A DNA stretch of 64,000 nt, taken from the IMG/VR virus record IMGVR_UViG_3300042402_002687, positions 7,826 through 71,825 of that record. The stretch is one strand, 5' to 3'. Both the position numbers and the translations under genes were made by a program. Shown piece after piece: positions 32,988 to 49,040 of the stretch; within the stretch, counting starts at the first letter, position 1; every line of letters begins with the position of its first letter. The stretch is from a virus. Under the pieces are notes generated by a model. That model did not search any database. It was given only the letters and a program-made list of their open reading frames with translations, and was not told the DNA's origin.

Positions 32988-34410
32988 GATTTGATTGTTC
33001 TATCTTAGCAGAGTCAACAAGATGAATTACATGATCTCTAATGTTAAAGTACTCAATTAACCTAGTGGCATTCTCTCTCTTCAAGACCCCTTGCCCTTGT
33101 GCAACATGATACAAATGAGGAACATGGAAAAGTTCAAAATCAACATTGCCAACATCAGTTGCCATTGGGCTGCGTACACTCCATAGATCTAATAAATTAT
33201 TTAAATACTCTGGCTTTTCCATGTTCTTCTGGTTTCTCCACATTTCACTATCATCTCTATCAGAAATATAGTGAAGGGAAATCATGGAAACCAAGTTATC
33301 CATCATAACATCCATTTTTTTATTAAAGTTATTACCGACTATAGAATTAGAATCATCATAGCCTACAAAGTTTTCAATAAAGCACCTAATTTGCTGAATT
33401 GTTGAGCTTATTGAAGTAGCCTCTAGTGGTTCAACAAATGAAGAACACAGACCCAAAGCCAAACAATTCTTATACCACATTTTGTCAAGACTTCCCGGTT
33501 CAAATTTAAAAGACTTCTTTGGTGTAACTTCAAACCCAAGCAAATCTGATACATCTTTTATAGCCTGATCATCCGAAATTAAGTCAGAGTTGAATACATA
33601 ACCGTTACCCCGCCTGCTTTGAGTTGGGATTTCCCAAACCCATCCATTGGCAGTTGCTCTAGCCCGAGTATAGGGTCTAATCTGACCACTGGGGTCAGAC
33701 TCTGTTGGGAATGCTATAGCAGCATTCATTTGAAGGAACTTTGAGTAAGACCTCCACTTAGTATTTCCCATTGCATTCATCAAGACTCTGGCTGTACCAC
33801 TAGCATCAATCCAAAAATCCGATGTTTTTACATCCATATTGGATGTCATAACAGATTCGATATATCCATTTTCATTATTCAAATTTACTTTTATAACCTC
33901 AGTATCTTCAATACTGATTCCTCTATTTTGGCATAATTTTTGCAAATAATCATTTAATCTATTTGTATCAAAATGGTATTGATTGACTGATGTATGTGGA
34001 TTATCCGCTCTGACTTTGTTTTCAATCATAGCTCTAGATGCAGTATTTTCAGTCAGTGTTTTTCCAGCTTCAACCAATCCATTGTATAAACCACTTATTT
34101 GAAAAAGACCTTCATAGGGAACAGACGCAACGCTATGGAAATAATCAGGGGTATGCTTTGTCCAATTTTCAAATCGAATACCATTTTTATGAGTAGCATG
34201 TGTCTCATTAAGCATTTCTGCAAGGGGTATCTTGCAGATATCCATGAACATACGCCAATGTTCTGTGCTACCTTCCCCAACACCAACGATTCCAATCTTT
34301 GATGAAGACAATATTGATATGTTGAATCTTGGATAAGCTGCTTTTATCATTAAGCCAGCTAACAGTCCAGCAGTACCGGATCCAACTATTGTAATGTTCT
34401 TTGTATACAT
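32941..34410 (-). CDS. Flavin-dependent (tryptophan) halogenase family protein
   Basis: GSGTAG, VGVGEGS, ATHKNGIRFENW (catalytic Lys), GWVWEIP (WxWxIP), FVEPLEATSI. Confidence 0.93.
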   Translation of the reverse strand: MYTKNITIVGSGTAGLLAGLMIKAAYPRFNISILSSSKIGIVGVGEGSTEHWRMFMDICKIPLAEMLNETHATHKNGIRFENWTKHTPDYFHSVASVPYEGLFQISGLYNGLVEAGKTLTENTASRAMIENKVRADNPHTSVNQYHFDTNRLNDYLQKLCQNRGISIEDTEVIKVNLNNENGYIESVMTSNMDVKTSDFWIDASGTARVLMNAMGNTKWRSYSKFLQMNAAIAFPTESDPSGQIRPYTRARATANGWVWEIPTQSRRGNGYVFNSDLISDDQAIKDVSDLLGFEVTPKKSFKFEPGSLDKMWYKNCLALGLCSSFVEPLEATSISSTIQQIRCFIENFVGYDDSNSIVGNNFNKKMDVMMDNLVSMISLHYISDRDDSEMWRNQKNMEKPEYLNNLLDLWSVRSPMATDVGNVDFELFHVPHLYHVAQGQGVLKRENATRLIEYFNIRDHVIHLVDSAKIEQSNHAKVDHAESLKQIQI

Positions 34411-35468
34411 ATAACCTTATCTATCATTTTTTTTGGATCAATATTTGGTGAATATTGTAAACTATTTTTATTTTCAAAATAAACTTGAATAAGTTCAAGG
34501 TAATCTTTGCCCTCATAATCAATATTATTCCTTGTAACAATGTCATACATAAAAGTATCTATTTGATGTCTTTCTGAGGCAAGAACGCTTGGTGGTATTA
34601 CAACACCACTTGGATGTGAATTGCTCAAGGATGTTAGGGTTCTATACTGGCAATTTGATTTAATAAAATCAGAAAGGACTTCCGGCATTTCTTCTGCTAA
34701 TTCATTTTCTCTTCCAGTATATGGCTGACCATTTAAATACTTGGATAGCCTAGACGGAGGATATTGAGTGGACAACCATTCTTCTAATTCCGATGGGATG
34801 TTTAAACTTGCCCATAAAGCCTTTGCCTTTTGAGAAATCTCAATATGCTCTTGAACATCACTATCCGACACCTTAGCCCATTCATAAATAAGTTTAAGTA
34901 TTGAAGAATAAGACCTTCCAGCTAGAAGCTGGTTGAATTCGTCATTAGGGTTTTCATTTTCTACTTGTAGAGTCTCAAAATATGCAATATGACAGACACC
35001 AGAAAGGCTAATTGGATTGAATGTTTTGGATATCACATAGGGGTTGGTATTTTTAGGAATAAAAAAAGGAAATCCGCCATATTTCCCGTAATCGCATCGA
35101 AGCGGGTGTGTTCCATCTTTTGTTTTTGAAGTACCTTCAATTTTAGAATAGTCTTCAAAACTTGGCAATTCAATGGAATTAACAAATAAAAAAAATTTAA
35201 AATAATCAAATACTTTTTTATCTAAAATATCAAACATTTGATCAAAATAAGTTAAATTAATATTTATACCATTACAAATAAAATTATGGACACCAACGCC
35301 CCTGACTGGGAAGGCAATAATCTTGCCAGATTCTGTATTGATTACATCATAATCATTATAAGGAACCAAACCGTCTACGGTATTAACCTTTAAATCAGTA
35401 TTACTCACATCCCCTATGAAATAGAAGCTTTCATAGTCAAGGGGGTTGATTTCATTAATATCTATCAT
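34386..35468 (-). CDS. Hypothetical protein
   Basis: Long ORF coupled within the enzyme cassette. Confidence 0.7.
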   Translation of the reverse strand: MIDINEINPLDYESFYFIGDVSNTDLKVNTVDGLVPYNDYDVINTESGKIIAFPVRGVGVHNFICNGININLTYFDQMFDILDKKVFDYFKFFLFVNSIELPSFEDYSKIEGTSKTKDGTHPLRCDYGKYGGFPFFIPKNTNPYVISKTFNPISLSGVCHIAYFETLQVENENPNDEFNQLLAGRSYSSILKLIYEWAKVSDSDVQEHIEISQKAKALWASLNIPSELEEWLSTQYPPSRLSKYLNGQPYTGRENELAEEMPEVLSDFIKSNCQYRTLTSLSNSHPSGVVIPPSVLASERHQIDTFMYDIVTRNNIDYEGKDYLELIQVYFENKNSLQYSPNIDPKKMIDKVICIQRTLQ

Positions 35469-36103
35469 ACAAACCATGTTACCAGACTATATTTTACACC
35501 ATTATCAACTGGGTGCGCTATATGTGTATATGGGAAATTAGATGGGAAAAGAATCACATCATCCTTGTTCAGCTTGACTGTCAAGTTGAAATTATTAAAT
35601 TCCAATTCTCCTCCATCAAAACCATCTTCCCCTAGGCAAGCAACCATGCTAAGAATTCTTTCATTTTCGGAACCATGATCATGGTGTATATGGTATTCAG
35701 AACCACCTGTGTATTTTAATAAAGAATACCCTGTCTCTGTTTTTAATGAAAGGTCAAAAAAGTTTCTATAGTCCCAAATGCATTCGTTTAGGGGTGTAAG
35801 AATGTTTTCTATAAACTTTCCTTTTAAATCTTTTAAATCTTCATTAATATCTTCGGATAAGAGTACATTCATTGACATTTCAAGAGAAGTTCTGTAATCG
35901 CCAACAAACCCATTGTTTACACCATTGCCAGTTGATGACTGCATCCATAACAAATATGCCCAATCTCTATTTGCTTCACTTTCAATTAAATTAGTAAAAT
36001 TTTCACTTTTTAATGCGTTTCTATATATAAAAATACACGGAGCTTGTTCAAATTTTTCAATTGACAACAAAACTAAATTCCTCTTCTTTATTATCGCCAA
36101 CAA
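35465..36103 (-). CDS. 2OG-Fe(II) oxygenase, prolyl-4-hydroxylase-like
   Basis: YHIHHD (HxD), FDGGEL, FPSNFPYTH, KYSLVTW. Confidence 0.9.
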   Translation of the reverse strand: MLAIIKKRNLVLLSIEKFEQAPCIFIYRNALKSENFTNLIESEANRDWAYLLWMQSSTGNGVNNGFVGDYRTSLEMSMNVLLSEDINEDLKDLKGKFIENILTPLNECIWDYRNFFDLSLKTETGYSLLKYTGGSEYHIHHDHGSENERILSMVACLGEDGFDGGELEFNNFNLTVKLNKDDVILFPSNFPYTHIAHPVDNGVKYSLVTWFV

Positions 36104-36702: not shown

Positions 36703-38814
36703 CTATGCATTTAAAATTGTAATTACTGAACCAGATTGACCTGTTCCACCACCAGACACAGTTCCACCAATTGTTGATGTTACCACCGTGTTGGCTATTG
36801 AGTCAGTAATGATAATTATACCACCACCACCACCAGTGATGCCAGCTGATCCGGCAGTTGATGAACCAGCAGCGCCTGCAGTTCCACCATTTTTTACGAC
36901 ACTTCCTTGACCTGATACGGACCCCGCTGTTCTGTAGCGATATGTCCCATGATTGTATTGGTTATGATACCTTGGCCATGCAGATCCAATATGCCATGCT
37001 CCACATCCGGAAAAGAACTTATCTCCTCCATGACCGGGGTTATGTTCAACCCCCTGATGGGGTCCATCATGACCAGTATGAAATTCACCGCTTGTGTGTG
37101 AGCTATCTGCGATTCTTGCTTCTCCAATATTTCCTCTATGTCCCGGAGTATGGTCAATGCTATTAATTGAATAATAAGTTCCAGTCAATGAATCAACATG
37201 TGCGTTATTGTTATAATCACCTTGGTGATGCCCATAATTTCCGCCTTGGTTATTTGCAGCACCAAAGTTATAAGTTCCGGGACCATGACCAAAAGTGCGC
37301 CCAGCAGCGTTTCCGCACCAAAAACTACAATCCCCCGAACAGGCAGTATGGTGTACCACACCTCTATGAACATGGTGATAGGTATACCCATGCCTATAAT
37401 TTTCTGTAGCAGCGACATTGGGTACGCCCTGTGGAACACCATGTGGAAGATTTGGGGTAGGAGTTGAGGCATGAGGTCCATGTGTTCCATCACCTGTTAT
37501 ATAATGCTTTGAACCATCAACCAGGTGAGTTAATGGTTGGTTAGGAGCTGCTGTACCTGCACTTCCTGTTGAGCTATTTGCACCAACATTTGCATTCTGC
37601 CCTTGAGCTAAAATTGTTCCTAATCCAGTGATTTGCTTGGCAACAATGAGGACAATACCCCCGCCGATTCCGCCAGTTCCTCCAGCAGACGCAGATGGCG
37701 TTGTACCAGCTGTTCCGGGACCACCCGGTGCAAGAGTATTTCTGTTAAGTTCACCAGCACCACCATTTGTTGCAGGGGTTAAAGTTCCAGACGCACCAGA
37801 CGCACCAGCAGCTCCGCCTCTTATTGCAGACACTGTTCCTTCGGCATCTATCACTATACCAGAAATCAATGCTTCAATATTTTTCCTATCAGAGTCAGTT
37901 ATTTGTGATGCTGTATATGTATTACCACCAGAATTTCCTCCGATGGCTTTTGCGATATTACCAGAGCCAAGGAGCATACGCTCTGCAAGGGTCGAATTAA
38001 AATAAAGTTGTTGCGGGATGACTCCAATATTACCAGTAAGAGTCAGTGTATTTTTTACAAATACACGATAACCGTTTGTATTCAGATGAACTCCGGTATT
38101 AATAGTAAGATTGTTGTAGTACATATCTCTAGAGAGAGATGTATTTGAGGCAATTACAACAGTACCGTCAGACCCAGTTCCGTAAACTGAGTCGTTACCT
38201 ATTCTTTGAACCGAAGAGGATGGCTCAACTAAGAACATTCGCACTGGTCTTACGCTATGTGATTCAGATTTCAAAGGACCAACGGCATCCAAGTATAGCC
38301 ACATTGCAGCTCTTGATGCCGCATCGCCATAGGTAGTTCCAGTTTCTTGCGTTGAACCCCAATAGTTAGCACTGCCTAGATTGTCTGGATTATTAAGGCC
38401 TCCTATGTCTCCATTATCATAAAAAAGAACGGATACCATTTGACCAAGTTCAAATGAAGATGGAAGAAACCAGTCATTCTTACCACCAGAAGTGCAAGTT
38501 CTAGCCAAAGCTGCTGCTGATGTAGCGGGGTCTGTATTTCCCTGAGCGATAATGGCTAAAGTATTAGCATAACCAGTTCCATATGCAGTGCCAGTCGCTC
38601 CGAGAACATTGGATGTTTGATAAGATGTTTGCGCCCAAGTCCTTTTAGGATCTGCCCCAACCCCATTCCACCCATAAGGAGCAGCTTCAAAATATTTCCC
38701 TGTTTCATTACCGGCAGTTGATGGAGTAGCAAATATAAATCCACCGCTTGGGCCTCTATCCCCAACTTCAAATGTTCTTAATGTTTTAGCATTAAATCTT
38801 TCTAAACCAGCCAT
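36703..38814 (-). CDS. Gly-rich fibre/adhesin protein: Lcl/DUF1566-like domain, polyglycine domain and His-rich insert
   Basis: DWFLPSSFEL...YWGST...VRPVR; YGTGSDG...GYRVFVK; GGGIVLIVA/GGGGIIII; 26 His in ~193 aa. Confidence 0.75.
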   Translation of the reverse strand: MAGLERFNAKTLRTFEVGDRGPSGGFIFATPSTAGNETGKYFEAAPYGWNGVGADPKRTWAQTSYQTSNVLGATGTAYGTGYANTLAIIAQGNTDPATSAAALARTCTSGGKNDWFLPSSFELGQMVSVLFYDNGDIGGLNNPDNLGSANYWGSTQETGTTYGDAASRAAMWLYLDAVGPLKSESHSVRPVRMFLVEPSSSVQRIGNDSVYGTGSDGTVVIASNTSLSRDMYYNNLTINTGVHLNTNGYRVFVKNTLTLTGNIGVIPQQLYFNSTLAERMLLGSGNIAKAIGGNSGGNTYTASQITDSDRKNIEALISGIVIDAEGTVSAIRGGAAGASGASGTLTPATNGGAGELNRNTLAPGGPGTAGTTPSASAGGTGGIGGGIVLIVAKQITGLGTILAQGQNANVGANSSTGSAGTAAPNQPLTHLVDGSKHYITGDGTHGPHASTPTPNLPHGVPQGVPNVAATENYRHGYTYHHVHRGVVHHTACSGDCSFWCGNAAGRTFGHGPGTYNFGAANNQGGNYGHHQGDYNNNAHVDSLTGTYYSINSIDHTPGHRGNIGEARIADSSHTSGEFHTGHDGPHQGVEHNPGHGGDKFFSGCGAWHIGSAWPRYHNQYNHGTYRYRTAGSVSGQGSVVKNGGTAGAAGSSTAGSAGITGGGGGIIIITDSIANTVVTSTIGGTVSGGGTGQSGSVITILNA

Positions 38815-38815
38815 A

Positions 38816-39538
38816 CTATACCAATTGAGAGTATATCACTGTACCATTTGCGCAACTTGTTCCACCAGCAACATTTGTTGAAACATTTGCTGGCAAAGAT
38901 GCTTGAGCAGAAGTGATGATAATAACTCCGCCTCCTCCACCACCAGAACCAGCCGTTCCTGGTGCGCTAATTGAAGCATTAACTGTATTTGCATCACAAG
39001 AGATGTATCTCGCATTAAGAATAACAACTCCACCACCAGTGCCGCTTACTGATGCACCACCAGCACCTCCTCTTAGAAATAAAGGAGTGGTTTGAGTTGC
39101 AGTTATTACATATCCTTTAGAAGACTGTGTAGGCTGATACCAGTAGCCACTCTGTGTCGTCTTATCGCCAGTTCCTCCATTTGAAACAGTTGGAGGAGTT
39201 GCGATTTGTGTTGCGCTGTTTCCACCAAGGCTGTTGGTGACTGCTGTATTGGCAGCAGCCCCGCCAGCAATTGAGCCATTAGCATTTGATCCAGTTGTAA
39301 AACCAATTAAAGAACCATTACGGAGAGTAAGTATATTTTTTACAAAAACTCTATAACCGGCGGTAATTAAGTTTGTATTTGCATTTATTTCCAAGTTATA
39401 ATAATACTTATCAGACGACAAAGTTGTATTTGTAGAAATAGTCACAGACCCATCTGAGCCAGTTCCGTATACAGGGTCAGCGGCATCAATGAATGAGGCA
39501 AAAGCGTTTGCAGCAGGAAATCTAGAAATACCAGTCAT
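38816..39538 (-). CDS. Gly-rich fibre/adhesin protein, paralog of the 36703-38814 core
   Basis: Shares VYGTGSDG.V.I..NT.LS.D.YY.NL.IN...GYRVFVKN.LTL and GGGV[VI]II motifs. Confidence 0.75.
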   Translation of the reverse strand: MTGISRFPAANAFASFIDAADPVYGTGSDGSVTISTNTTLSSDKYYYNLEINANTNLITAGYRVFVKNILTLRNGSLIGFTTGSNANGSIAGGAAANTAVTNSLGGNSATQIATPPTVSNGGTGDKTTQSGYWYQPTQSSKGYVITATQTTPLFLRGGAGGASVSGTGGGVVILNARYISCDANTVNASISAPGTAGSGGGGGGVIIITSAQASLPANVSTNVAGGTSCANGTVIYSQLV

Positions 39539-39897
39539 TACGACTCCTCTATGCCAAATATTGTAACATTTATTGCAGAGTTAGATGAAGCTAAAAATGT
39601 AATTTGATCACTATTTGTATTGTTCGCAGTACTTCCATTATTAATTAAAACCATAGAGCAGTTGAATGATACAGTCTCATTTGCATTAATTGTTACACTG
39701 CTTAATATATCATGAGTATTTGCTTCAGCAATATTGAGAGGCTTTAAACGAATTGTTGCAGTTTTTGAAGAAGCTGTTGTATTAGTTAACAGGATTTGTT
39801 TAACGATAGTTGTGGTGTTAATTGGAACAGTATATGCAACAGATGTAACGGTAGTAATTTGAGTTGGACCAGCCAATCTTTTTTGTGTCACAGCCAT
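39538..39897 (-). CDS. Small beta-sandwich virion protein
   Basis: YTVP...IVKQILLTNT...ETVS...IFGIE; paralog of 44893-45225. Confidence 0.6.
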   Translation of the reverse strand: MAVTQKRLAGPTQITTVTSVAYTVPINTTTIVKQILLTNTTASSKTATIRLKPLNIAEANTHDILSSVTINANETVSFNCSMVLINNGSTANNTNSDQITFLASSNSAINVTIFGIEES

Positions 39898-40187
39898 TAT
39901 ATAACCTCCATGTAGAACTTAATCATGTTGTCACGAACAGTATTTTTATTCACCCATGAACTACCATTGTATTCCAAAATCTGTCCTGATGCTGGAGTCG
40001 TAATAGCCACATCAGTCAGGGCATCTAAATCTGCAGAGCCTCCACTGCTGAACTGGACAATTGTATTGGAACCGTTTTTGTAAAAAATCTTTCCATCGGC
40101 ATAGTTAAGCCCCAGCTCACCATGTTCAAGCGAAGCCGGGACTGCTGAAGCCGTTCCTGAGTTTTTGATTTTAATGGTGTTAGCCAT
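39897..40187 (-). CDS. Short fibre adaptor with Mtd N-terminal-like domain
   Basis: MANTIKIK...PASLEHGELGLN..DGKIFY; LDALTDV...GQILEYNGSSWVN fibre repeat. Confidence 0.65.
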   Translation of the reverse strand: MANTIKIKNSGTASAVPASLEHGELGLNYADGKIFYKNGSNTIVQFSSGGSADLDALTDVAITTPASGQILEYNGSSWVNKNTVRDNMIKFYMEVI

Positions 40188-40199
40188 TACTCCCTCCTA

Positions 40200-41288
40200 T
40201 CAGAAAGTTCCGCCATCCACTGTATCAGACCACGAAGGAACGCCTGCTACAACTTTAAGAAACTGACCTGCCGAGCCAATGCCAAGTTTTGCAAGGGTAT
40301 TTGTAGCAGAGGAGTAAACCAAGTCACCAGTTGTATAGGAGGTAAGACCAGTACCACCGTAAGTTGCGCCAATTGCTGTGCCATTCCATACACCAGTTGC
40401 AATGGTTCCAACTGATGTCAAACTTGAGCCTGTGACACCTGAACCCAAAGTTGTTCCAGAAAGAACTGAAGTTCCGGCAATTTGGAAACTCTTGGTGGTG
40501 AGAAGATTTAGGTGTTCTGAAGATGTCCATGCATCTGTTGCATCAACCCAATTAAGAGTCTTATCTGTTGCACCCTTGATTGTGAAACCAGCACCGTCTG
40601 CAGTTGTGTCTGTTGGTGTATCAACATTTGCAAGAACAATATTCTTATCCTCAACAGTTAAAGTTGCGGTATTAAGGGTTGTTGTATTACCATTAACAAC
40701 AAGATCTCCAGTAACTGTAAGAGTATTAGAGATTGTAACATCAGCTGGAAGGCTAATTGTTACCGCCCCAACACCAGAGTTGGAAACTGCAACTTGATTG
40801 GCTGTGCCAGTAAGACCAGTTACAAGGTTTGTTGCTCTGTCACTAACTTGTGAAGCAGTGATGGAGATTGCTGTATTGCCAGCAGCAGTCAGGCGACCAT
40901 CTGCTTGAACAGTGAAGGTACCGACTGTGCCTGCACCGCCATAAGAACCAGCCGTTACTGCTGTATTGGTAAGAGAAACTCCTGATACTGCGCCATCAAC
41001 ATAAGCCTTGGTTGCAGCATGCGTGTTTGCGGTTGGTGTTGGAACAAGAACAAGACCACTAAATGTCTTATTCCCAGTTACCGTCTGTACTCCTGAAAGT
41101 GTGAGGTAAGCACCTGCACCAGCAACTGCCTCAACGGTTGTAGCAGTTCCACCTGCTCCACCTGTCCCTTTACCGTAGTAGAGGACATCATCTACTTCGT
41201 TATATGCAAGTTCTGCATTTTCCAGAGAGGCTGGCGCTCCAGCTGCTCCTCCAGAAGCCCTTCTTTTGATTCTAATTGTATTAGCCAT
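40200..41288 (-). CDS. Fibre protein with Mtd N-terminal-like domain
   Basis: MANTIRIKR...PASLENAELAYN; HAATKAYVD, QTVTGNKTF, YGGTG fibre motifs; GGAGG RBS; ends DGGTF. Confidence 0.75.
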   Translation of the reverse strand: MANTIRIKRRASGGAAGAPASLENAELAYNEVDDVLYYGKGTGGAGGTATTVEAVAGAGAYLTLSGVQTVTGNKTFSGLVLVPTPTANTHAATKAYVDGAVSGVSLTNTAVTAGSYGGAGTVGTFTVQADGRLTAAGNTAISITASQVSDRATNLVTGLTGTANQVAVSNSGVGAVTISLPADVTISNTLTVTGDLVVNGNTTTLNTATLTVEDKNIVLANVDTPTDTTADGAGFTIKGATDKTLNWVDATDAWTSSEHLNLLTTKSFQIAGTSVLSGTTLGSGVTGSSLTSVGTIATGVWNGTAIGATYGGTGLTSYTTGDLVYSSATNTLAKLGIGSAGQFLKVVAGVPSWSDTVDGGTF

Positions 41289-41289
41289 T

Positions 41290-41565
41290 TTAGTAATTAC
41301 CTCCATCAAGTAATGTATTTGCGATTGAGTGAACATGATCTGCTCTACTTGCAACCTCAAGAGTTCCGCTATTTGCGGCTCTTGCAATGTCCAATGGCGC
41401 TGCATTTGACATTGTTAAGATTCTTTCTAATGTTATTGTTGCTGGAGTTGCGACAAGTGTTGTTACATCTCCATTGCTGACTACAACTGATGTAATATCG
41501 CTATTTGATACAGTAATGTTGGTTACATCACCTGTCAAAACTTGCAGTGTTGTTATATCAGCCAC
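41290..41565 (-). CDS. Small virion/fibre adaptor protein
   Basis: DIT/DVT 10-aa repeats, ASRADHVH, ends DGGNY. Confidence 0.6.
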   Translation of the reverse strand: MADITTLQVLTGDVTNITVSNSDITSVVVSNGDVTTLVATPATITLERILTMSNAAPLDIARAANSGTLEVASRADHVHSIANTLLDGGNY

Positions 41566-41893
41566 GACTTACTTCTCCAATAACTGTTATTTTACCTCCC
41601 ATTAAGGTTGTAACAGTTGATCCATTTGTTTCTTCAAGATCATAATAGTATATACCAGTATTTATATTCGAAGTTGTGCCAGATGATAATGTGATATTAA
41701 GTGTTCCAGCAGCAGCATTACTAATGGTTGTTGTGAATGTTTGTATAATTGTCTCAGAAGATTTTGTTTTTCTAATTTGAGCTCTATATGTACGACCAGA
41801 TATATTAATAGCAGTATTGGCGCTATTTTTTATTCGGACTTCATGAGTATATGAATCCCCTTTATAAATTGATATATCTCTTATGCCAGCCAT
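41558..41893 (-). CDS. Ig-like (BppU N-terminal-like) virion protein
   Basis: IYKGDSY...AQIRK...GIYYYDLEE...GKITV. Confidence 0.65.
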   Translation of the reverse strand: MAGIRDISIYKGDSYTHEVRIKNSANTAINISGRTYRAQIRKTKSSETIIQTFTTTISNAAAGTLNITLSSGTTSNINTGIYYYDLEETNGSTVTTLMGGKITVIGEVSRG

Positions 41894-41895
41894 AT

Positions 41896-41991
41896 TTAGC
41901 AGTCACAAGTCTCACAACCACAGCTGCACTGTTCAATACAGTCGCAACCGCATTCGCAAGATTTGTTTCTTCCTTTATTCAAATCTTCCAT
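41896..41991 (-). CDS. Metallothionein-like Cys-rich mini-protein (31 aa; not in ORF track)
   Basis: MEDLNKGRNKSCECGCDCIEQCSCGCETCDC*; TAATG overlap with the upstream stop; ends 2 nt before the next ATG. Confidence 0.8.
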   Translation of the reverse strand: MEDLNKGRNKSCECGCDCIEQCSCGCETCDC

Positions 41992-42521
41992 TATGCACCC
42001 GGCTTTGGCAACGCTCTCCAAGCTGCTTCAAACTTTGCAGCATCCTTTGCCATTTCTGGAGAAAGCTCTAAATGCAACCACTTTCCGCCGAATGACCCGG
42101 CATTGTCGGACTCACTAAAAATTTTGACCCCTGCCTCGTTTTCTCCTCTTGAGCACCTGAAGCCGCGGCCATAGCCAACATTCTTGTCCGACTTGTCAGC
42201 ATCATATGCATAGTCGTGAATCTCCTCAATGCCAAGTTCTTTGGTGTACTTAATAAACCAGTTCCACATCTCAACACCAACCTTGCGGTCCGTGTAGCCA
42301 ACATCGCATGCGGCTCCGGTTGCGTGGACTGATAGGAATTTCTCCATGCCTGGGTCGCCAATTTTCTTGCCTTCGGTCTTAGAGTTTCTCATCAACCTGG
42401 CGGAATACACGCCCATGTTTGTTGCTTTCCATCTTTTTCCACAAAGCTCAACGAGTTTTAGCGTTCCAGGCTGTGCGCCTTTTCCGTCAAAACTAGGATA
42501 ATACGAATACTTTCTTGGCAT
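41991..42521 (-). CDS. Endolysin, zinc peptidase (M15-like)
   Basis: R...SVHATGAACDV (HxxxxxxD) and WLHLE; next to holin-like genes. Confidence 0.75.
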   Translation of the reverse strand: MPRKYSYYPSFDGKGAQPGTLKLVELCGKRWKATNMGVYSARLMRNSKTEGKKIGDPGMEKFLSVHATGAACDVGYTDRKVGVEMWNWFIKYTKELGIEEIHDYAYDADKSDKNVGYGRGFRCSRGENEAGVKIFSESDNAGSFGGKWLHLELSPEMAKDAAKFEAAWRALPKPGA

Positions 42522-42709
42522 TATTTTACCTTTCCAAATGCTGAATCATTAGGATTCAGGTAGCGCATAATGACAGGAAGAGCCGCAGCCCATAATGCAT
42601 TTGCAGCCATTTTTACATCACCAGTTGATGCGTATACAGCGACAGCAGCTCCCAATACGCTTCTTGCGTAGGATGCAGCCATTGCCTTTTGTGCTTCAGT
42701 AATTTTCAT
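42521..42709 (-). CDS. Holin-like protein
   Basis: ASYARS..., two hydrophobic segments, RYLNPND..FG tail; AAGGAG RBS. Confidence 0.7.
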   Translation of the reverse strand: MKITEAQKAMAASYARSVLGAAVAVYASTGDVKMAANALWAAALPVIMRYLNPNDSAFGKVK

Positions 42710-42754
42710 ATAATATATCTCCTTTGTGGATAACCACTATAAGTCAATTATACC

Positions 42755-43003
42755 TTAGATGTCATTTTTAGGCTGAGTCTTCGAGCCGTTAAAAATTTCA
42801 TCAATCTCGTCAAGGTCTAGTTTGCCATCGTTAAGGAAGGCTTTGGCAAGACCTTCAACAACTTTAGCAACTCCTCCAATTCCAGCCATCAGGATGGCTT
42901 GAGGTAAATTAACTCCAGCAATAGAGCCAGCGCCAATCACGCCAAGACCCGATGCACCAAATACGGCAAGTATTCTTAATAAGATATTTTTTGTATTATT
43001 CAT
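42755..43003 (-). CDS. Two-TM membrane protein (holin-like)
   Basis: Two Gly/Ala-rich TM segments and DGKLDLDEI tail. Confidence 0.65.
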   Translation of the reverse strand: MNNTKNILLRILAVFGASGLGVIGAGSIAGVNLPQAILMAGIGGVAKVVEGLAKAFLNDGKLDLDEIDEIFNGSKTQPKNDI

Positions 43004-43174
43004 TTAGTCTTCATCCTTTTTAATTAAAACACCAAACATGTGAACAACAAATGCGGTTATTGTTAACCACAATCCATAAGTTTGAGTTTTTCCAGATAAT
43101 GTAATTAAAACAATTACACCTCCGGATAGTGTCCATGCCAAAGCATGGAGTTCGTTTAAGATTTTTTTAAACAT
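43004..43174 (-). CDS. Small two-TM membrane protein (56 aa; not in ORF track)
   Basis: MFKKILNELHALAWTLSGGVIVLITLSGKTQTYGLWLTITAFVVHMFGVLIKKDED*, exactly filling the gap with a TAATG overlap. Confidence 0.75.
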   Translation of the reverse strand: MFKKILNELHALAWTLSGGVIVLITLSGKTQTYGLWLTITAFVVHMFGVLIKKDED

Positions 43175-44868
43175 TATTTTCTCCTTGATCGGCTACTACC
43201 CCGATCTGTGTTACCAGAACCACCGCCTCCCGATGGTCCACCAGCACCTCCACCCGATGGTGCAGGACTACCTCCAGAGGGCATAGGAGCCGTTGTAATC
43301 ATTGTTAAAGTAGTTGTTACAGCAATGAGTGCTCTTCTTGCTTTTACATCTATTTCAGAACCTGTAGGGACATAATCATCAAGACCTTCTCCGAAGATGT
43401 CAATCTCTCCCTCAAAGGCTTCTTTAATTTCAGTTGGGGCATCGGTAAGCGTTTCAACAAGAGCAGCTTCTTCTGCTAGAGTAAGATTCTCAACAGCAAT
43501 TTCTTGGAAGATTTCTGTAGCCTGATCTGCATCAATACTCTCCAAAACCTTTGCGCTTGTAGCAAGGTCGGTTGCCTGATCTTCTGTAACACCAAGTTCC
43601 AAAACACTGTCAACAGCATTAGACACTTGTTCTTCAGAAACAGAATCTGACTCTAAAATTCCAACAACCGCTTCAAATTGTTCATCTGACAACGGCGTAT
43701 CTAATACAGAGTCAATAACTGATGCAAATTTTTCATCCGAAATTGGCTCATCAAAAATAGAATCAAGGGCAGCAGAAAATTGTTCTTCAGATAACGGCTC
43801 AGAAAAGACTGCATCGACAGCAGCTTCAAATTGGTCTGCACTTAGTTGAGATGTATTGTCAAAGACAGCTTCTACTGCAGCAGAGAAGTTTTCGTCAGAC
43901 ATAGGCCCATCAAACACTGAATCAATAACTGTAGAAAACTGCGAATCAGTTAAGTCTTGACCAAGGAGGGAGTTAACCACTGCCGTAAGTTCTTCAGGAG
44001 TTCCGGCATCTGCTACTAAGCCATCAACAGCATTTGCAAGGTTTGCATTAGTTATAGGTGCATCGAAAATATCATCAACCGTTGCGTCTATAGTTTCTTG
44101 AACCTCTTGGGGAACTTCAATTGTTGGCGTTGGGTCTTCAGGAATTTCAACAGGTGTTGTATCTATTTCTGGAGTAGAAACTGGAGTTTGGTCCAACTCA
44201 GGAATTGAAACAGTGGTGTTTTCTGTTGGAAGTGTTTCAACAGGAGGCGGAACAACCTCCTCAACAGTCGTTGTAGTCGTTTCAGGCTCAGGTGCTATAG
44301 TTGTTGTAGAAGTTGTAGTGGAGGTTGTAGTTGAAGATGTTGTTGTGGTTGGCACCACTGTCGTTGTGGTTGTGGATGTTGTGGTGGTCGTTGTAGAAGT
44401 TGTGGTAGTTGGCTCTACAGTGGTAGAGGTGGTTGTGGTTGATTCCACTGTCGTGGATGTTGTGGAAGTGGTCTGAGTAGACCCAACACCATTGAAGCTC
44501 AGTTCATACCGCAAGTTCCACCCTTGATTTGTATGCCAAGCATCAGGGTTTCCACAGCAAATACCAGCCCTTAGTCTGTAACGACCAGCAGGTACTTCCA
44601 TAGAGATGTACGACTGCAAGCCAATGGAGTCGTCAATGCTATAAAGCAAAGTTCCTGCTTCGTTGTATAGCCACAACATCGGGTCTGAGTTATACCCAGT
44701 AATCATATAAGTTTGCGCTATAAACTGTGTTGTCTCGCTGTAATCAAACCAAACATCTGTTGGCTCTGTGATTATTAGGTTTTCAGCCTTAGCGGGGGAT
44801 GCAAAAATAGAAATAAAAATTAAAGGTATTAATACCCAAGAACCTTTTTTAAATCTTAATTGTCTCAC
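43174..44868 (-). CDS. Secreted/surface protein: signal peptide, beta domain, Thr-rich stalk, acidic ~18-aa repeats
   Basis: MRQLRFKK-hydrophobic-AKA signal; TTTSTT tract; repeats of DSVFDxPLSDEQFxA; basic C-terminus. Confidence 0.75.
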   Translation of the reverse strand: MRQLRFKKGSWVLIPLIFISIFASPAKAENLIITEPTDVWFDYSETTQFIAQTYMITGYNSDPMLWLYNEAGTLLYSIDDSIGLQSYISMEVPAGRYRLRAGICCGNPDAWHTNQGWNLRYELSFNGVGSTQTTSTTSTTVESTTTTSTTVEPTTTTSTTTTTTSTTTTTVVPTTTTSSTTTSTTTSTTTIAPEPETTTTTVEEVVPPPVETLPTENTTVSIPELDQTPVSTPEIDTTPVEIPEDPTPTIEVPQEVQETIDATVDDIFDAPITNANLANAVDGLVADAGTPEELTAVVNSLLGQDLTDSQFSTVIDSVFDGPMSDENFSAAVEAVFDNTSQLSADQFEAAVDAVFSEPLSEEQFSAALDSIFDEPISDEKFASVIDSVLDTPLSDEQFEAVVGILESDSVSEEQVSNAVDSVLELGVTEDQATDLATSAKVLESIDADQATEIFQEIAVENLTLAEEAALVETLTDAPTEIKEAFEGEIDIFGEGLDDYVPTGSEIDVKARRALIAVTTTLTMITTAPMPSGGSPAPSGGGAGGPSGGGGSGNTDRGSSRSRRK

Positions 44869-44892
44869 CTAACAATAATACTTGATTATTGA

Positions 44893-45225
44893 TTAAGCGA
44901 CATACTCCACACCACTAATAGTATAAGTTGCTGTTGACACACTTGAGCTTACATAAATAGAAGCACCAGCGTTAACAACAACTGCTGAATCGTAAGATAT
45001 AGTTTCTCCACTAAGAACTGAAAAGTTGCTTAACACTTTATTGTTTGCACCAGCAGAACCACTTGCTGGAATAAGATGAACATTGCAAAGCAGTGTGCTT
45101 GCACCTGTGTTGCAAATATTTATATTCTTCACAATTGCATAGCTTCCAACATTGGAGCTTAATGTGTAAACATTAGCTGCGCTATCGCTACCGATATAAA
45201 GAGTTTTGGGAGTTAAGTTAGCCAT
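44893..45225 (-). CDS. Small beta-sandwich virion protein
   Basis: VYTL...IVKNINICNT...ETIS...ISGVE; paralog of 39538-39897. Confidence 0.6.
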   Translation of the reverse strand: MANLTPKTLYIGSDSAANVYTLSSNVGSYAIVKNINICNTGASTLLCNVHLIPASGSAGANNKVLSNFSVLSGETISYDSAVVVNAGASIYVSSSVSTATYTISGVEYVA

Positions 45226-45569
45226 TAGAACCTCATCCAAGCAAGAATGCTTGTGTCATTAGCCACAGTGTTCATATACTGAATTGTGGTTGCATCTAGC
45301 ACATGATCAACGATTTCACCCGCTGTATGCGCTATTGCACTTGTTGAATCATAACCTCTTGAAGATACAGTAAAAGTATTTGCTGATCTTGAAGAGCAGA
45401 GAATTTTTTCTTCTGCTGCGGTTCCTCTTCCAATTACAATTACAAAAGGGTTTAGAGAACCGGAGGGGAATGTACTTCCATCAATAACTACAATTGATGT
45501 TGCTGAGTTGGATACATTTGCTGTTAATTGTGTTTTTAAAACACCACCAGCGAATTCTCTTCTTAACAA
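45225..45569 (-). CDS. Virion protein with an RG..T.A..H beta domain
   Basis: Same domain occurs twice in the 9924-13811 tail protein. Confidence 0.6.
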   Translation of the reverse strand: MLRREFAGGVLKTQLTANVSNSATSIVVIDGSTFPSGSLNPFVIVIGRGTAAEEKILCSSRSANTFTVSSRGYDSTSAIAHTAGEIVDHVLDATTIQYMNTVANDTSILAWMRF

Positions 45570-45582
45570 AGCAACCCCCTAA

Positions 45583-45966
45583 TTAGTTAATAGAAATACT
45601 TAGGTCGCCTGAGCTAACTCTAAGAATATCTCCTGCATCAAGTGATTTGTTTGCAGTTAAAGGACCATATACAAGAATATTACCACTTGTAATTGCATCG
45701 CAAACTGCAATTGCAACAACCGTACAAGTAGGCATACCGTTGAAGTCAATGTCTGAATCATTCGTTGTTGCACCTGAAGAAGCAGCATTGAATGTTGCTA
45801 CTTTTCTAGCATAGGAGCCACCACTAACCTCTGTTCCCGCTGAGGAATCGGTAGGAGCGGCTGTGTAAAGAGCCAAATAAACCGTTGATGGTTTCGTATA
45901 AGTCGTTGTGCCAAGAAAATGATCAAGAAGTTTAACCTCAAGATAATCGCTTAAATTTCCAGCCAT
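45583..45966 (-). CDS. Virion structural/decoration protein
   Basis: LSDYLE.KLLDH...VYLALYTAAPTD...EVSGGSYAR motif common in phage structural proteins. Confidence 0.65.
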   Translation of the reverse strand: MAGNLSDYLEVKLLDHFLGTTTYTKPSTVYLALYTAAPTDSSAGTEVSGGSYARKVATFNAASSGATTNDSDIDFNGMPTCTVVAIAVCDAITSGNILVYGPLTANKSLDAGDILRVSSGDLSISIN

Positions 45967-47423: not shown

Positions 47424-49040
47424 TTATGACTTATAGCCCAAGGAGTTAATTAAACCTTGTGGCAAATATACATTGTTCCATAGCGATGCTGGAGCGGACT
47501 TGGTAAGTTCCTCGCCATCCTCATCATCCTCTGGATCAACACTTTTCTTGATAGCACCAGCAGTTGCGAAGGCCTTAACCTGCTCTTCCTGCTCGGTCAG
47601 AGCTTGCTCTGTTGCTTCTAATTTTTCTTGAAGTTCAGCAGTGCTGGCTTCAAATCCCTTTGTAATATCATCGATCTTATTTTGAACCGAAGCTTCAATC
47701 TCTTCTTTAATTGAAGTAGCGAAGGTTTCGAGTTTTTGATCAACCACATCACTGAGAGCGTTTTTTAGGATTTCAATATCCATTTCTTCCTCCTGTGTGT
47801 TTTCAGTTACTTCAACTTGTGCTGAAGCATTTTCTTGAACATCTGGAACAAGCCAGTTAACTACTCTTTTTAGCAGAGATAGTCTGTTAATTTCTTGTTC
47901 ATTCATGTTAAAGACCTTATCATAGTTTATATCATTTTGCAATTCGCTATCGTTCTCAGTTTTAGTAATCGCATCAATCATTTCTTTGAGAACCTCATTC
48001 ATTGAATTTAGCTCTTCTAAATTGCTGTCTTCAGAAATTTCTTCTAAAGATTCTTTTTTAATTTCATTTGTCATTGAAGACTCCTTTTTCTTTTTCTTTG
48101 GATAACCCTGTGCTGGATTCTTAATGCCAGCACCCATGTTTCCAGTTGTCACTTCGCCTTCTTTTTCAATGCCCTTTTCTTTCGTATTAGCATATCTCTC
48201 AAGGAGTCTGCGACCTTTTGCAGCGAGTTCTGCTGCGTCTTGTGCGTTTTGTGGCACAGGCTCGCCCCATGCAGCAGCAGATAGCGCAAGTCTTGAGGGT
48301 TCTCCATTTGGTTTTTTCATAGGACCAGATGGGTTTGTGAAAAACCGTGTAAGGAATGAACCCTTTCTACGCATTTTTTCTGGAGTATCTGCTGCACCCC
48401 GCACTCCCGGCTTAAGATTTGCGCCTTCAGTCTCTTTAAAGTGTCTACGGCCTGCAGCAGTAAGACCGCCTTTAGGGTCTTTCAGAGGTTGTTTTGCTTT
48501 TTCAAAATCAATATCTTCAACAATATCTAGGATATAGTCAAGATTACCATCAGTGTCCATCTTGATAATGTCAACAACTGCCAGAGCATTTGCGGGGTTA
48601 TCTACGAGGCTAAGTTCGCCAAGCATGTATTGCTTAATAATATTTACAGGTCGACCACGGAACATTTTTTCAGCAGATTCAATTTTTTCAACGATCTTGC
48701 CCCCAATAGAGAAGGCCTTAAGCGTTCCATCCAAAATCTTTTCCCAAGTGTCTTGGGCACCTTTTGATATATAGGCATCAACCTTGATTGCATTATATTT
48801 AGTTCCATCTTGAGCAGTTATTTCAATTGGCTCAAAATTAATTGCTTTACCGACAGCAATGGGTGCATGCATCTCACGGATGTTTCCACCCCAATTTTTA
48901 AATGCTTCTAGTGAGGCACTAAATTCAACAATATCTCCAGATTTGTCAATGTTGTCAGCAGTAGCAATACCACTTACGATTCTCTCTTCTTTCTTGATCA
49001 TGTCAATGGGGAAGGACAAGTTAAAATTTTCCATAGTCAC
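47424..49040 (-). CDS. Prohead protease fused to an inserted basic domain and scaffold-like coiled coil
   Basis: IDKSGDIV, IREMH, AFSIGG, ELSLVDNPAN protease motifs; acidic coiled-coil C-terminus. Confidence 0.9.
   Translation of the reverse strand: MTMENFNLSFPIDMIKKEERIVSGIATADNIDKSGDIVEFSASLEAFKNWGGNIREMHAPIAVGKAINFEPIEITAQDGTKYNAIKVDAYISKGAQDTWEKILDGTLKAFSIGGKIVEKIESAEKMFRGRPVNIIKQYMLGELSLVDNPANALAVVDIIKMDTDGNLDYILDIVEDIDFEKAKQPLKDPKGGLTAAGRRHFKETEGANLKPGVRGAADTPEKMRRKGSFLTRFFTNPSGPMKKPNGEPSRLALSAAAWGEPVPQNAQDAAELAAKGRRLLERYANTKEKGIEKEGEVTTGNMGAGIKNPAQGYPKKKKKESSMTNEIKKESLEEISEDSNLEELNSMNEVLKEMIDAITKTENDSELQNDINYDKVFNMNEQEINRLSLLKRVVNWLVPDVQENASAQVEVTENTQEEEMDIEILKNALSDVVDQKLETFATSIKEEIEASVQNKIDDITKGFEASTAELQEKLEATEQALTEQEEQVKAFATAGAIKKSVDPEDDEDGEELTKSAPASLWNNVYLPQGLINSLGYKS

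What the first reader, a model, noticed from the sequence alone, without database searches (positions are those of the whole stretch)
36703..45569. Daisy-chain docking code in the fibre/decoration genes
Seen, in gene order: 41290-41565 ends LDGGNY; the next gene starts MANTIRIKR (Mtd_N-like) and ends VDGGTF; the next starts MANTIKIKN (Mtd_N-like) and ends DNMIKFYMEVI; then comes a beta-sandwich gene, then two Gly-rich proteins both starting M-x-G-[IL]-x-R-F. Independently, 45225-45569 ends DTSILAWMRF and is followed by the paralogous beta-sandwich 44893-45225. So each C-terminal motif type is followed twice by the same kind of domain. Inference: plug-and-socket pairs (DGGx[FY] to Mtd_N; D..I..[YW]M to beta-sandwich; MxGxxRF to beta-sandwich) build a branched appendage whose order mirrors gene order.
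Basis: partly seen in the sequence, partly recalled or inferred. Interest (0 to 1): 0.75.

Follow-up and report, generated by a model that had tools for sequence, protein, structure and literature searches.

The report
Split phage tail fibre with conserved joints
An uncultured long-tailed phage encodes its side fibre as a chain of small proteins whose ends carry recurring "tail" and "head" motifs, and the same pairings recur in many unrelated phages, including phage T4, so fibre architecture may be partly readable from sequence.

Summary
All quoted termini are present. The two DNA patterns for "DGGx[FY]-stop" and "MANTIxIK" occur only at the two junctions, and in 0 of 100 shuffles.

- **DGG tail to head.** 40 of 48 distinct DGG-ended fibre genes are followed by a gene with the same N-terminal head, against 23 of 1710 other genes.
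- **Head identity.** The head is homologous to the T4 gp37 N-terminus (hhalign 97%), not detectably to Bordetella Mtd. T4 gp36 ends DFGYY just before gp37.
- **Jelly-roll.** The "beta-sandwich" is an 8-stranded jelly-roll (pLDDT 90.5). It is always preceded by a hydrophobic C-tail whose subtype matches the jelly-roll subtype, and is usually followed by a protein starting M-x-G-hydrophobic.
- **Cultured phages and fusions.** Pelagiphages HTVC010P and HTVC106P show the same triad. Natural fusions exist.

Two caveats apply. Binding is not shown. The last residues of the hydrophobic tails are partly dictated by a ribosome-binding site.

Verdict: a multi-subunit lateral tail fibre with conserved joints, a new variant of a known kind.

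The parts
41558..41893 (-). 111-aa LtfC-like beta-sandwich protein. Proposed collar or anchor at which the fibre chain starts.
   Evidence: Pfam LtfC E 7.1e-5, 23.7 bits, under the 27-bit cut-off. phrog_3304 'L-shaped tail fiber protein assembly' E 9.3e-11 and phrog_1084 E 2.3e-24. Locus L031 has the same gene order: LtfC-like, then a short DGG-tailed protein, then a MANTI fibre.
41290..41565 (-). 91-aa first link. It has no gp37-N-like head, an N-terminal half rich in short strand-like repeats, and a C-terminus LDGGNY.
   Evidence: The tail pattern is matched at 41290-41307. Relatives end ..LLDGGNY.
40200..41288 (-). 362-aa fibre. It starts with a gp37-N-like head (MANTIRIKR..) and ends VDGGTF.
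   Evidence: PHROG fibre and virion-protein hits. The head profile matches T4 gp37 residues 6-48 at 97% probability.
39897..40187 (-). 96-aa adaptor. It has a gp37-N-like head (MANTIKIKN..) and a hydrophobic C-tail ..RDNMIKFYMEVI. Its stop codon overlaps the next ATG by 1 nt.
   Evidence: PHROG 'long tail fiber protein distal subunit' families, E 4.7e-4 and 5e-3. In relatives the tail is conserved on upstream proteins of 50-447 aa with different N-termini.
39538..39897 (-). 119-aa jelly-roll joint protein.
   Evidence: AF2 pLDDT 90.5 with 8 strands. Best fold matches are generic jelly-rolls: HFTV1 turret Z 9.7, KHP40 trimeric cement Z 9.4. There are many ~110-aa phage proteins in BFVD, including 'virion structural protein' entries. 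The family has 46 distinct members in the fetched loci.
38816..39538 (-). 240-aa Gly-rich distal protein starting MTGISRFP.
   Evidence: Residues 1-30 are highly conserved in 12 homologues yet predicted disordered alone, pLDDT 29-39. The core resembles beta-solenoids only weakly, best Z 6.5.
36703..38814 (-). 703-aa Gly-rich distal protein starting MAGLERF, with an inserted N-terminal domain.
   Evidence: It shares a 52-residue block with the 240-aa protein. There is a weak Lcl_C hit, E 0.0074.
45225..45569 (-). 114-aa protein: an N-terminal anchor domain of a tail-fibre family, plus the hydrophobic tail ..NDTSILAWMRF.
   Evidence: PHROG tail-fibre N-termini, E 6e-13 to 4e-9. Longer homologues carry the same first ~95 residues followed by shafts, Collar or Gly_rich_2 domains.
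44893..45225 (-). 110-aa jelly-roll, a paralogue of the 119-aa protein.
45583..45966 (-). 127-aa Gp80-like protein. It is context and is not shown to belong to the chain.
   Evidence: Pfam PF23140 E 1.1e-39, 136 bits.

Best explanation
The region encodes a lateral tail fibre that is split into many small polypeptides, and gene order follows assembly order. The proposed sequence is as follows.

1. **Anchor (inferred).** The 111-aa LtfC-like protein forms a collar on the tail, by analogy with phage DT57C.
2. **First link.** The 91-aa protein attaches to the collar and ends in LDGGNY.
3. **Fibre.** The 362-aa fibre caps that tail with an N-terminal head homologous to the T4 gp37 N-terminus. This is the same kind of joint as T4 (gp36)3-(gp37)3. 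The fibre itself ends in VDGGTF.
4. **Adaptor.** The 96-aa protein uses the same head to sit on that second tail. It presents a different, hydrophobic C-tail (..RDNMIKFYMEVI).
5. **Jelly-roll joint.** That tail engages the 119-aa jelly-roll protein.
6. **Distal proteins.** The jelly-roll carries the two Gly-rich, beta-solenoid-like proteins through their conserved N-terminal peptides (M-x-G-hydrophobic-x-R-F-P). These peptides are disordered on their own.
7. **Second chain.** A shorter chain (114-aa anchor plus tail, then a 110-aa jelly-roll) uses the same tail/jelly-roll joint.

Overlapping stop and start codons couple translation, which would give matched amounts of the links.

What is shown: the motifs, their genome-wide adjacency, the co-variation of subtypes, the fusions, and the homology to T4 gp37-N. 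What is inferred: every physical contact, the stoichiometry, the attachment site and the receptor-binding role.
For: **Head follows tail.**
- Of 129 gene pairs whose downstream gene starts with the strict MANTI motif, 118 have a [DNE][GAC]Gx[FYW] tail upstream. Of the 2302 other pairs, 38 have such a tail (2431 pairs in all).
- A less biased test asks what follows fibres that were picked by their own head. 40 of 48 distinct DGG-ended fibres with a neighbour are followed by a head-bearing gene, against 23 of 1710 genes without a DGG tail.

**The DGG tail is conserved at the protein level.** Across 108 distinct junctions all four Gly codons are used. Spacing to the next ATG runs from -4 to +68 nt, and only 38 of 108 have a GGAGG-type hexamer.

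**Head and tail are separable.** All 4 first-link proteins examined have the tail but no head (window 91 aa, L031 74 aa, L040 112 aa, L033 82 aa). The adaptors have the head but a different tail.

**Fusions of tail to head.** P0088 and P0089 carry ..TNKTIDG-ED-NTILLKRS.. and ..TNKTISG-NS-NTLVLRNS.., so tail and head are contiguous in one chain. This was seen in 2 of the 10 two-stretch proteins fetched.

**T4 parallel.** The head profile matches T4 gp37 residues 6-48 at 97% probability, E 9.9e-11. gp36 ends DFGYY 8 nt before gene 37. The distal rod is (gp36)3-(gp37)3 (passages).

**The head is strictly N-terminal.** The match starts at residue 1 in 147 of the 150 best hits. 19,835 cluster representatives match at E<=1e-3.

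**Jelly-roll joint.**
- Of 49 distinct jelly-roll genes with an upstream neighbour, 48 follow a hydrophobic tail.
- Tail subtype matches jelly-roll subtype in every group: 20 of 20 QKRL-type with ..MEV., 11 of 11 LTPK-type with ..W/L-M/V-G/R/A.., 3 of 3, 4 of 4 and 6 of 6 in three further subtypes.
- The same heads occur with different tails, and the same tail occurs with five different N-termini.

**Fusions of the jelly-roll.** It occurs as the N-terminal domain of proteins that carry Gly_rich_2, Laminin_G_3 or pectate-lyase-like domains.

**Cultured phages.** HTVC010P gp23 ends ..DPTALAIALG, followed by the gp24 jelly-roll (annotated 'virion structural protein') and then an ORF starting MAYIGNKP. 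HTVC106P gp54 ends ..DPTALAIALG, followed by gp53 and then gp52 starting MSYIGKEP.

**Anchor.** In DT57C, LtfC is a collar to which LtfA N-termini bind by strand augmentation (passages).
Against: - **No contact was measured or confidently predicted.**
- **Linkage.** Tail and jelly-roll are adjacent on the DNA, so their co-variation is confounded by co-inheritance.
- **Sampling and motif bias.** The loci were found through the motifs or through the jelly-roll itself, and many are related. The regular expressions were widened after seeing the data.
- **Ribosome-binding site.** The last residues of the hydrophobic tails are constrained by a Shine-Dalgarno-like sequence. ATG GAG GT is invariant in every QKRL-type junction printed, and AGG, GGG or GGA occupy the same place in other subtypes.
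- **Fibres with no head downstream.** 8 of 48 DGG-ended fibres are followed by genes without a head. The tail may therefore simply be the end of a conserved C-terminal fibre domain.
- **Exceptions.** Ralstonia phage RSK1 ORF11 ends ..NTVLTRVG and its downstream gene has no MxG start. The upstream gene in L088 ends ..EATLTL.
- **This window.** The 110-aa jelly-roll is followed by an exported Thr-rich protein, not an MxG protein.
- **Upstream protein.** The 91-aa protein shows no similarity to T4 gp36 (E 0.68), and T4's DFGYY does not fit the DGG pattern exactly.
- **LtfC.** The Pfam match is below the gathering score.
Confidence: 0.6

Rival explanations
1. Tandem paralogues without docking. Fibre genes of one family each carry the head (to bind a common site on the tail) and the DGG end (the close of a C-terminal domain). 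Tandem arrays then place tails before heads without any tail-head contact.
For: Most MANTI fibres themselves end in DGGx[FY]. 8 of 48 such fibres have no head-bearing gene downstream.
Against: Head-less DGG-tailed proteins of 74-112 aa sit directly upstream of head-bearing genes in all 4 cases examined. Head-only adaptors lack the DGG tail. Tail and head are fused in P0088 and P0089. In T4, gp36 has a DFGYY tail and no head, and it joins gp37 end to end.
Confidence: 0.15
2. The junction motifs are module boundaries and translation signals. Conserved gene ends serve as recombination linkers and as ribosome-binding sites for coupled translation, not as protein contacts.
For: ATG GAG GT (M-E-V) is invariant at the nucleotide level just before the overlapping ATG. 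SD-like AGG, GGG or GGA occupy the same place in other tails. 38 of 108 DGG tails encode GGAGG. Mosaic breakpoints fall just upstream of the tail.
Against: The residues upstream of the SD codons (R-D-x-x-I-K/R-hydrophobic-hydrophobic) are conserved through synonymous codon changes. DGG uses all Gly codons and persists when a separate SD lies in a spacer of up to 68 nt. Tails remain hydrophobic where an 18-19-nt spacer carries its own SD, as in L016 and L018. The junction DNA is not conserved between the window's two DGG junctions.
Confidence: 0.13
3. The jelly-roll is a fibre assembly chaperone (Tfa or gp38-like) that acts on the C-terminus of the upstream protein and is not a structural joint.
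For: It lies immediately downstream of a fibre gene and co-varies with that gene's C-terminus, as chaperone/fibre pairs do.
Against: Homologues are annotated 'virion structural protein' in HTVC010P, HTVC106P, HTVC019P and S-TIM5, and likewise in BFVD for S-SCSM1 and MaMV-DC. These are record annotations and were not checked. The domain occurs as the N-terminal domain of receptor-binding-type proteins. The upstream 'substrate' can be only 50-77 aa. No chaperone family was hit in Pfam or PHROGs.
Confidence: 0.1

Closest known systems
T4 long tail fibre distal joint, gp36 to gp37
   Same: The N-terminal head is homologous to gp37 residues 6-48 (97% probability). The preceding gene product ends in D-x-G-x-aromatic (DFGYY). 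Gene order equals assembly order. The two trimers form one rod.
   Different: The upstream proteins here are not detectably gp36-like. The joint is used twice in series, and it is also used by minimal 64-117-aa adaptors. The host virus is a siphophage with a 4331-aa tape-measure gene. No gp35-like kneecap was found.
T5/DT57C lateral fibre attachment (LtfC collar plus LtfA N-terminus)
   Same: An LtfC-like small beta-sandwich gene lies directly upstream of the first fibre link. The principle of attachment by terminal peptides is described for DT57C.
   Different: The Pfam score is under the cut-off. The first link is a 91-aa protein, not an LtfA homologue. A ring structure was not tested.
Anchor-branch receptor-binding systems of Klebsiella podophages (branching domain plus conserved N-terminal docking peptide)
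   Same: The logic is the same: a secondary protein docks by a short conserved N-terminal peptide on a domain of the preceding protein. Sources are PMC6872550 and PMC13352976, of which only the search listing and abstract starts were seen.
   Different: No T4gp10-like branching domain appeared in the Pfam or PHROG scans. Here the socket is a separate ~110-aa jelly-roll protein, and the preceding protein contributes a C-terminal tail.
Chain-like fibres of podophages GP4, VP1 and A1002 (gp80-like dimers on a 'rope')
   Same: A gp80-family gene is present at 45583-45966 (E 1.1e-39). Small sandwich proteins bind an extended peptide by sheet augmentation (passages).
   Different: The jelly-roll family here is distinct from gp80 and has no Pfam hit. 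The gp80-like gene is not shown to belong to the chain.
Bordetella phage BPP-1 Mtd on its tail fibre
   Same: The fibre gene bbp9 ends ..ADLGGIA directly upstream of mtd. 2 of 17 members of the head family hit Pfam Mtd_N.
   Different: The head profile against the Mtd N-terminus gives 1.2% probability. The window's own heads do not hit Mtd_N.

Membership tests
T4 gp37 N-terminal head / gp36-gp37-type joint | N-terminal ~45 residues homologous to the gp37 N-terminus | tested here: met
   hhalign of head alignment A3 against T4 gp37 residues 1-100: 97% probability, E 9.9e-11, 43 columns. PHROG 'long tail fiber protein distal subunit' hits. Pairwise BLASTP alone gave E 0.23.
T4 gp37 N-terminal head / gp36-gp37-type joint | The preceding gene product ends in an acidic-Gly-x-aromatic C-terminus | tested here: met
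   The window has LDGGNY and VDGGTF. T4 gp36 ends DFGYY, which is similar but not identical to the DGG pattern.
T4 gp37 N-terminal head / gp36-gp37-type joint | The upstream protein is homologous to gp36 | tested here: not met
   BLASTP of the 91-aa protein against gp36: best E 0.68.
T4 gp37 N-terminal head / gp36-gp37-type joint | End-to-end physical association of the two trimers | not testable with these tools
   Needs a structure or a pull-down.
Pfam Mtd_N (PF18454) | Match to the family model | tested here: not met
   No hit for the window's heads at E<=10. 2 of 17 family members hit, best E 1.9e-4. hhalign against BPP-1 Mtd gives 1.2%.
LtfC collar (PF23926, DT57C/T5) | Match to the LtfC beta-sandwich model | tested here: inconclusive
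   E 7.1e-5 at 23.7 bits, below the 27-bit cut-off. phrog_3304 E 9.3e-11.
LtfC collar (PF23926, DT57C/T5) | Dodecameric ring around the tail that holds fibre N-termini | not testable with these tools
   Known for DT57C. Not modelled here.
Klebsiella-phage anchor-branch RBP system | T4gp10-like branching domain in the primary protein | tested here: not met
   No such family among the Pfam or PHROG hits of the ten proteins.
GP4 gp80 fibre protein (PF23140) | Match above the gathering score | tested here: met
   45583-45966: E 1.1e-39, 136.2 bits against a 27-bit cut-off.
Tail fibre assembly chaperones (Tfa, gp38) | Match to a chaperone family, and absence from virions | tested here: not met
   No chaperone family was hit. 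Homologues are annotated as virion structural proteins. Those annotations were not verified.

The most novel reading that the evidence does not exclude
Tailed phages of all three morphotypes share a small set of sequence-readable fibre joints. One is a gp37-N-type head that caps any DGGx[FY] C-terminus. The other is a previously undescribed ~110-aa jelly-roll joint protein that links a subtype-specific hydrophobic C-tail to an M-x-G-hydrophobic N-peptide. Mini-adaptors of 50-117 aa (head plus tail only) act as converters between joint types. A phage could then swap distal receptor-binding modules by exchanging a short cassette, and the fibre architecture of uncultured phages could be predicted from gene termini alone.
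Probability: 0.4. Interest if true: 0.8.

Novelty: new variant of a known kind. Interest (0 to 1): 0.62.

Why it matters
Multi-subunit fibres and docking peptides are known in T4, T5-like phages and Klebsiella phages. I found no description of the termini rule or of the jelly-roll joint. The searches were for the motif strings, for pelagiphage and jelly-roll fibre structures, and for Mtd_N. None returned a relevant paper. Subscription journals and supplementary files were not searched.

If the joints are real contacts, three things follow.
- The order and connectivity of fibre subunits could be read from sequence. This would apply to the abundant marine phages that carry them, including pelagiphages and cyanophages.
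- It would explain why very short 'orphan' genes sit inside fibre clusters.
- It would give testable, portable connectors for studying how receptor-binding modules are exchanged.

The head family is large, with 19,835 cluster representatives at E<=1e-3.

Tried and rejected
- **Complex prediction.** Three copies of the 96-aa adaptor with three copies of the 119-aa jelly-roll, each given with its alignment. The verdict was 'no answer' (scores 0.18 and 0.17, mark 0.32) and the controls were not run. This is neither support nor evidence against. The 3:3 stoichiometry was my guess.
- **Sequence searches of solved structures.** Nothing useful for the jelly-roll profile (0 hits), the 114-aa protein or the head/adaptor profile. 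The 362-aa fibre matched only a generic shaft motif in phage hyaluronidases, E 0.017.
- **Fold searches with the jelly-roll model.** Only generic jelly-roll matches, such as birnavirus VP2, nucleoplasmin, Ena pili, cement and turret proteins, at Z <= 9.7. No specific family can be named.
- **Gly-rich 240-aa model.** Low confidence (pLDDT 61.7). Its beta-solenoid matches (Z <= 6.5) are below the range the tool calls meaningful.
- **Gly-rich domain of fusion P0007.** It showed no similarity to the window's Gly-rich protein by BLASTP. The fusion supports the jelly-roll as an N-terminal anchor of distal domains in general, not of this family specifically.
- **Megablast of the region against isolated phages.** No match.
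- **Streptomyces phages sharing a 50%-identical capsid protein.** They have a different gene set after the capsid gene.
- **Duplication hypothesis.** I rejected the idea that the two DGG junctions are a recent DNA duplication, because the codons differ.
- **Script machine.** It was lost, so later counts were made by eye from tool outputs.

Full report
**Context.** The window is part of a 71.8-kb IMG/VR viral contig estimated at 69% complete. It encodes a portal, a protease/scaffold and an HK97-type capsid protein that is 50% identical to those of Streptomyces siphophages. It also has a 4331-aa ORF with a minor-tail/tape-measure match, and downstream tail-tip proteins with PA14, Laminin_G_3 and Peptidase_S74 domains. 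It is therefore a long-tailed siphophage. Between the capsid gene and the tail genes lie the genes of the finding, a lysis cassette, and a tryptophan halogenase and a 2OG-Fe(II) oxygenase. All are on the minus strand.

**Observation.** The junction genes are tightly packed.
- The 96-aa, 119-aa and 240-aa genes overlap by one base (TAATG-type overlaps).
- The 91-aa gene ends one base before the MANTIRIKR start.
- The 362-aa gene ends 12 nt before the MANTIKIKN start.

DNA patterns encoding D-G-G-x-[FY]-stop and M-A-N-T-I-x-I-K each occur twice in 64 kb, only at these junctions, and in none of 100 shuffles. The two junctions use different codons, so they are not a recent duplication. The two small proteins are paralogues (28% identity, E 7e-8). 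The 119-aa one is confidently predicted as an eight-stranded jelly-roll (pLDDT 90.5). The Gly-rich proteins share their first residues and a 52-residue block.

**The DGG tail / head pair is general.**
- *Adjacency.* In these and the earlier loci, 118 of the 129 gene pairs whose downstream gene starts with the strict motif have a [DNE][GAC]Gx[FYW] C-terminus upstream. Only 38 of the 2302 other pairs do, and most of those 38 downstream genes are head variants by eye.
- *Diversity.* The upstream contexts are very diverse, for example ..TLVDGGNF..ENLVDGGNF..EITDGGNF and ..HILDGGNW.
- *Less biased test.* Fibres were picked by their own head, and I asked what follows them. 40 of 48 distinct DGG-ended fibres are followed by a head-bearing gene, against 23 of 1710 genes lacking the tail. 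Several of those 23 have near-variants of the tail.
- *Not a coding artefact.* All four Gly codons are used, spacing to the next ATG ranges from -4 to +68 nt, and 54 of 108 junctions have a separate SD-like element.

**What the head is.**
- Pfam Mtd_N does not match the window's heads. Only 2 of 17 relatives match it. A profile of the head against the BPP-1 Mtd N-terminus gives 1.2% probability.
- The same profile matches T4 gp37 residues 6-48 at 97% probability, E 9.9e-11. PHROGs place the 96-aa protein with 'long tail fiber protein distal subunit' families.
- In T4, gp36 ends DFGYY and gene 37 starts 8 nt later. gp36 and gp37 trimers form the distal rod (bioRxiv 10.64898/2026.03.06.709160, passages only).
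- In a search of 1.84 billion representatives the head profile found 19,835 proteins at E<=1e-3. In 147 of the best 150 the match begins at residue 1.
- Two of the ten two-stretch proteins I fetched contain a second, internal head directly after ..TNKTIDG-ED or ..TNKTISG-NS. These are natural fusions of tail and head.
- All four first-link proteins examined have the tail without a head. The adaptors have the head without the DGG tail. The two elements are therefore separable modules.

**The jelly-roll joint.**
- *Lineage relatives.* 26 related loci (60-100% identity of the 119-aa protein) show that the gene upstream of the jelly-roll always ends ..[RN]DxxI[KR]-hydrophobic-hydrophobic-MEV-hydrophobic. 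Yet its length (50-447 aa) and N-terminus (MANTIKIKN, MPNTIKLKN, MAIDFP, MAQKF, MPLQS) vary.
- *Family.* An iterative profile search among all ORFs of the loci found 64 family members, 46 of them distinct, of 101-124 aa.
- *Tails.* Of 49 distinct cases with an upstream neighbour, 48 follow a hydrophobic tail.
- *Subtype matching.* Tail subtype tracks jelly-roll subtype without exception in the five larger groups: 20 of 20, 11 of 11, 3 of 3, 4 of 4 and 6 of 6.
Downstream genes start M-(x)-G-hydrophobic in 18 of 28 distinct cases, against 91 of 3680. These expressions were widened after seeing the data, and the loci are not independent.
- *Mini-adaptors.* Adaptors of 64-77 aa consist of little more than a head, a Gly linker and a tail such as ..AIAMAIALG.
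- *Whole architecture elsewhere.* The full order recurs in a different lineage (L029, L034, L046, L072): short DGG protein, MANTI fibre ending in DGG, MANTI adaptor with a hydrophobic tail, jelly-roll, then an MG-hydrophobic protein.
- *Cultured pelagiphages.* HTVC010P has gp23 ending ..DPTALAIALG, then gp24 ('virion structural protein'), then a TTG-start ORF beginning MAYIGNKP that the record annotates only in part. HTVC106P has gp54, gp53 and gp52 beginning MSYIGKEP.
- *Spread.* Homologues occur in pelagiphages, cyanomyophages, roseophages, Rhizobium, Methylophilales and Ralstonia phages.
- *Longer relatives.* Some carry the jelly-roll as the N-terminal domain of proteins with Gly_rich_2, Laminin_G_3 or pectate-lyase-like domains. 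One ORF (P0060) runs from a fibre ending ..AIAMAIVFG through 23 residues into a jelly-roll.
- *The 114-aa protein.* It is the N-terminal ~95-residue anchor of a tail-fibre family whose full-length members continue into shafts and Collar or Gly_rich_2 domains. Here that continuation is replaced by the hydrophobic tail.

**A caveat found on the way.** In the tails that overlap the next start codon, the last residues are encoded by SD-like sequence.
- M-E-V is always ATG GAG GT.
- M-R-F is ATG AGG TT.
- M-G-V/I is ATG GGG.
- ..I/V-G-V contains AGGAG.

That part of the 'motif' is therefore at least partly a ribosome-binding site for coupled translation. The residues before it vary synonymously, and tails stay hydrophobic where a spacer carries its own SD.

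**Where the chain starts.** The gene just upstream of the 91-aa protein (41558-41893) is LtfC-like: Pfam E 7.1e-5, below the cut-off, and phrog_3304 E 9.3e-11. Locus L031 has the same order; L040 and L033 do not. In DT57C, LtfC is a dodecameric collar at the tail tip, and the LtfA N-termini bind it by adding strands to its sheets (PMC10713586, passages). I infer that the fibre described here is a lateral tail fibre anchored in the same manner. This step is the least supported.

**Distal end.** The 240-aa protein has a very conserved N-terminal 30 residues. These are predicted disordered in isolation (pLDDT 29-39), as expected for a docking peptide, though this is inference. Its core gives only weak beta-solenoid matches. 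Both Gly-rich proteins, and their homologues in relatives, keep the same N-terminal motif. This is the only basis for 'branching'.

**Comparison with what is known.** The logic of end-to-end links and docking peptides is established in four systems.
- T4.
- T5-like phages.
- gp80-type chain fibres (PMC13730344, passages).
- Klebsiella-phage anchor-branch systems (PMC6872550 and PMC13352976, listing and abstract starts only).

What appears new is threefold: the generality of the tail/head rule, the separate jelly-roll joint protein with subtype-matched tails, and the mini-adaptors. My searches for the motif strings and related topics found no description. Supplementary files and subscription journals were not available.

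Noticed in passing
window 15219-28214 (-): A single 4331-aa ORF with a PhageMin_Tail match (E 1.4e-7, residues 254-463). If it is the tape measure, it implies an exceptionally long tail.
   Followed up: no
window 32941-34410 and 35465-36103 (-): A tryptophan halogenase (PF04820, E 1.7e-94) and a 2OG-Fe(II) oxygenase (E 1.1e-12) sit inside the structural gene block directly downstream of the fibre genes. The oxygenase C-terminus (..KYSLVTWF.) recurs after the Gly-rich genes in many related loci.
   Followed up: partly
window 43174-44868 (-): A 564-aa protein with a signal-peptide-like N-terminus, long Thr-rich tracts, acidic repeats, a C-terminal hydrophobic segment and a basic tail. It lies between the 110-aa jelly-roll and the small membrane proteins and putative endolysin of the lysis cassette, and is conserved in relatives. 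Its function is unknown.
   Followed up: no
window 45583-45966 (-): A strong match to the gp80 fibre protein of podophage GP4 (PF23140, E 1.1e-39), two genes after the capsid gene of a siphophage. gp80-type dimers are described on podophage 'rope' fibres.
   Followed up: partly
window 51355-53475 (-): A class II-type ribonucleotide reductase (RNR_Alpha E 3e-30, B12-dependent insertion domain E 1.3e-9) lies next to the portal region.
   Followed up: no
window 39900-39911, and equivalent junctions in L001-L135: C-terminal residues M-E-V are encoded by an invariant ATG GAG GT, which doubles as the Shine-Dalgarno sequence of the overlapping next gene. This is an example of a protein end shaped by a translation signal.
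   Followed up: yes
L149 4376-5014 (Pelagibacter phage HTVC010P): The record annotates gp25 as 4691-5014. An ORF with a TTG start at 4376, 10 nt after the jelly-roll gene, gives a 212-aa protein beginning MAYIGNKP, like the neighbouring 'tail fiber protein' gp27 (MAYIGREP). The annotated start is probably too far downstream.
   Followed up: partly
L023-L026: In more distant relatives the two chains of the window are contiguous, with no lysis cassette between them. The order is 114-aa anchor, 110-aa jelly-roll, 276-aa protein ending ..LLMEVI, 119-aa jelly-roll, then the Gly-rich proteins.
   Followed up: partly
window 47424-49040 (-): The prohead protease/scaffold fusion carries a DUF6321 domain (E 7.7e-28).
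   Followed up: no
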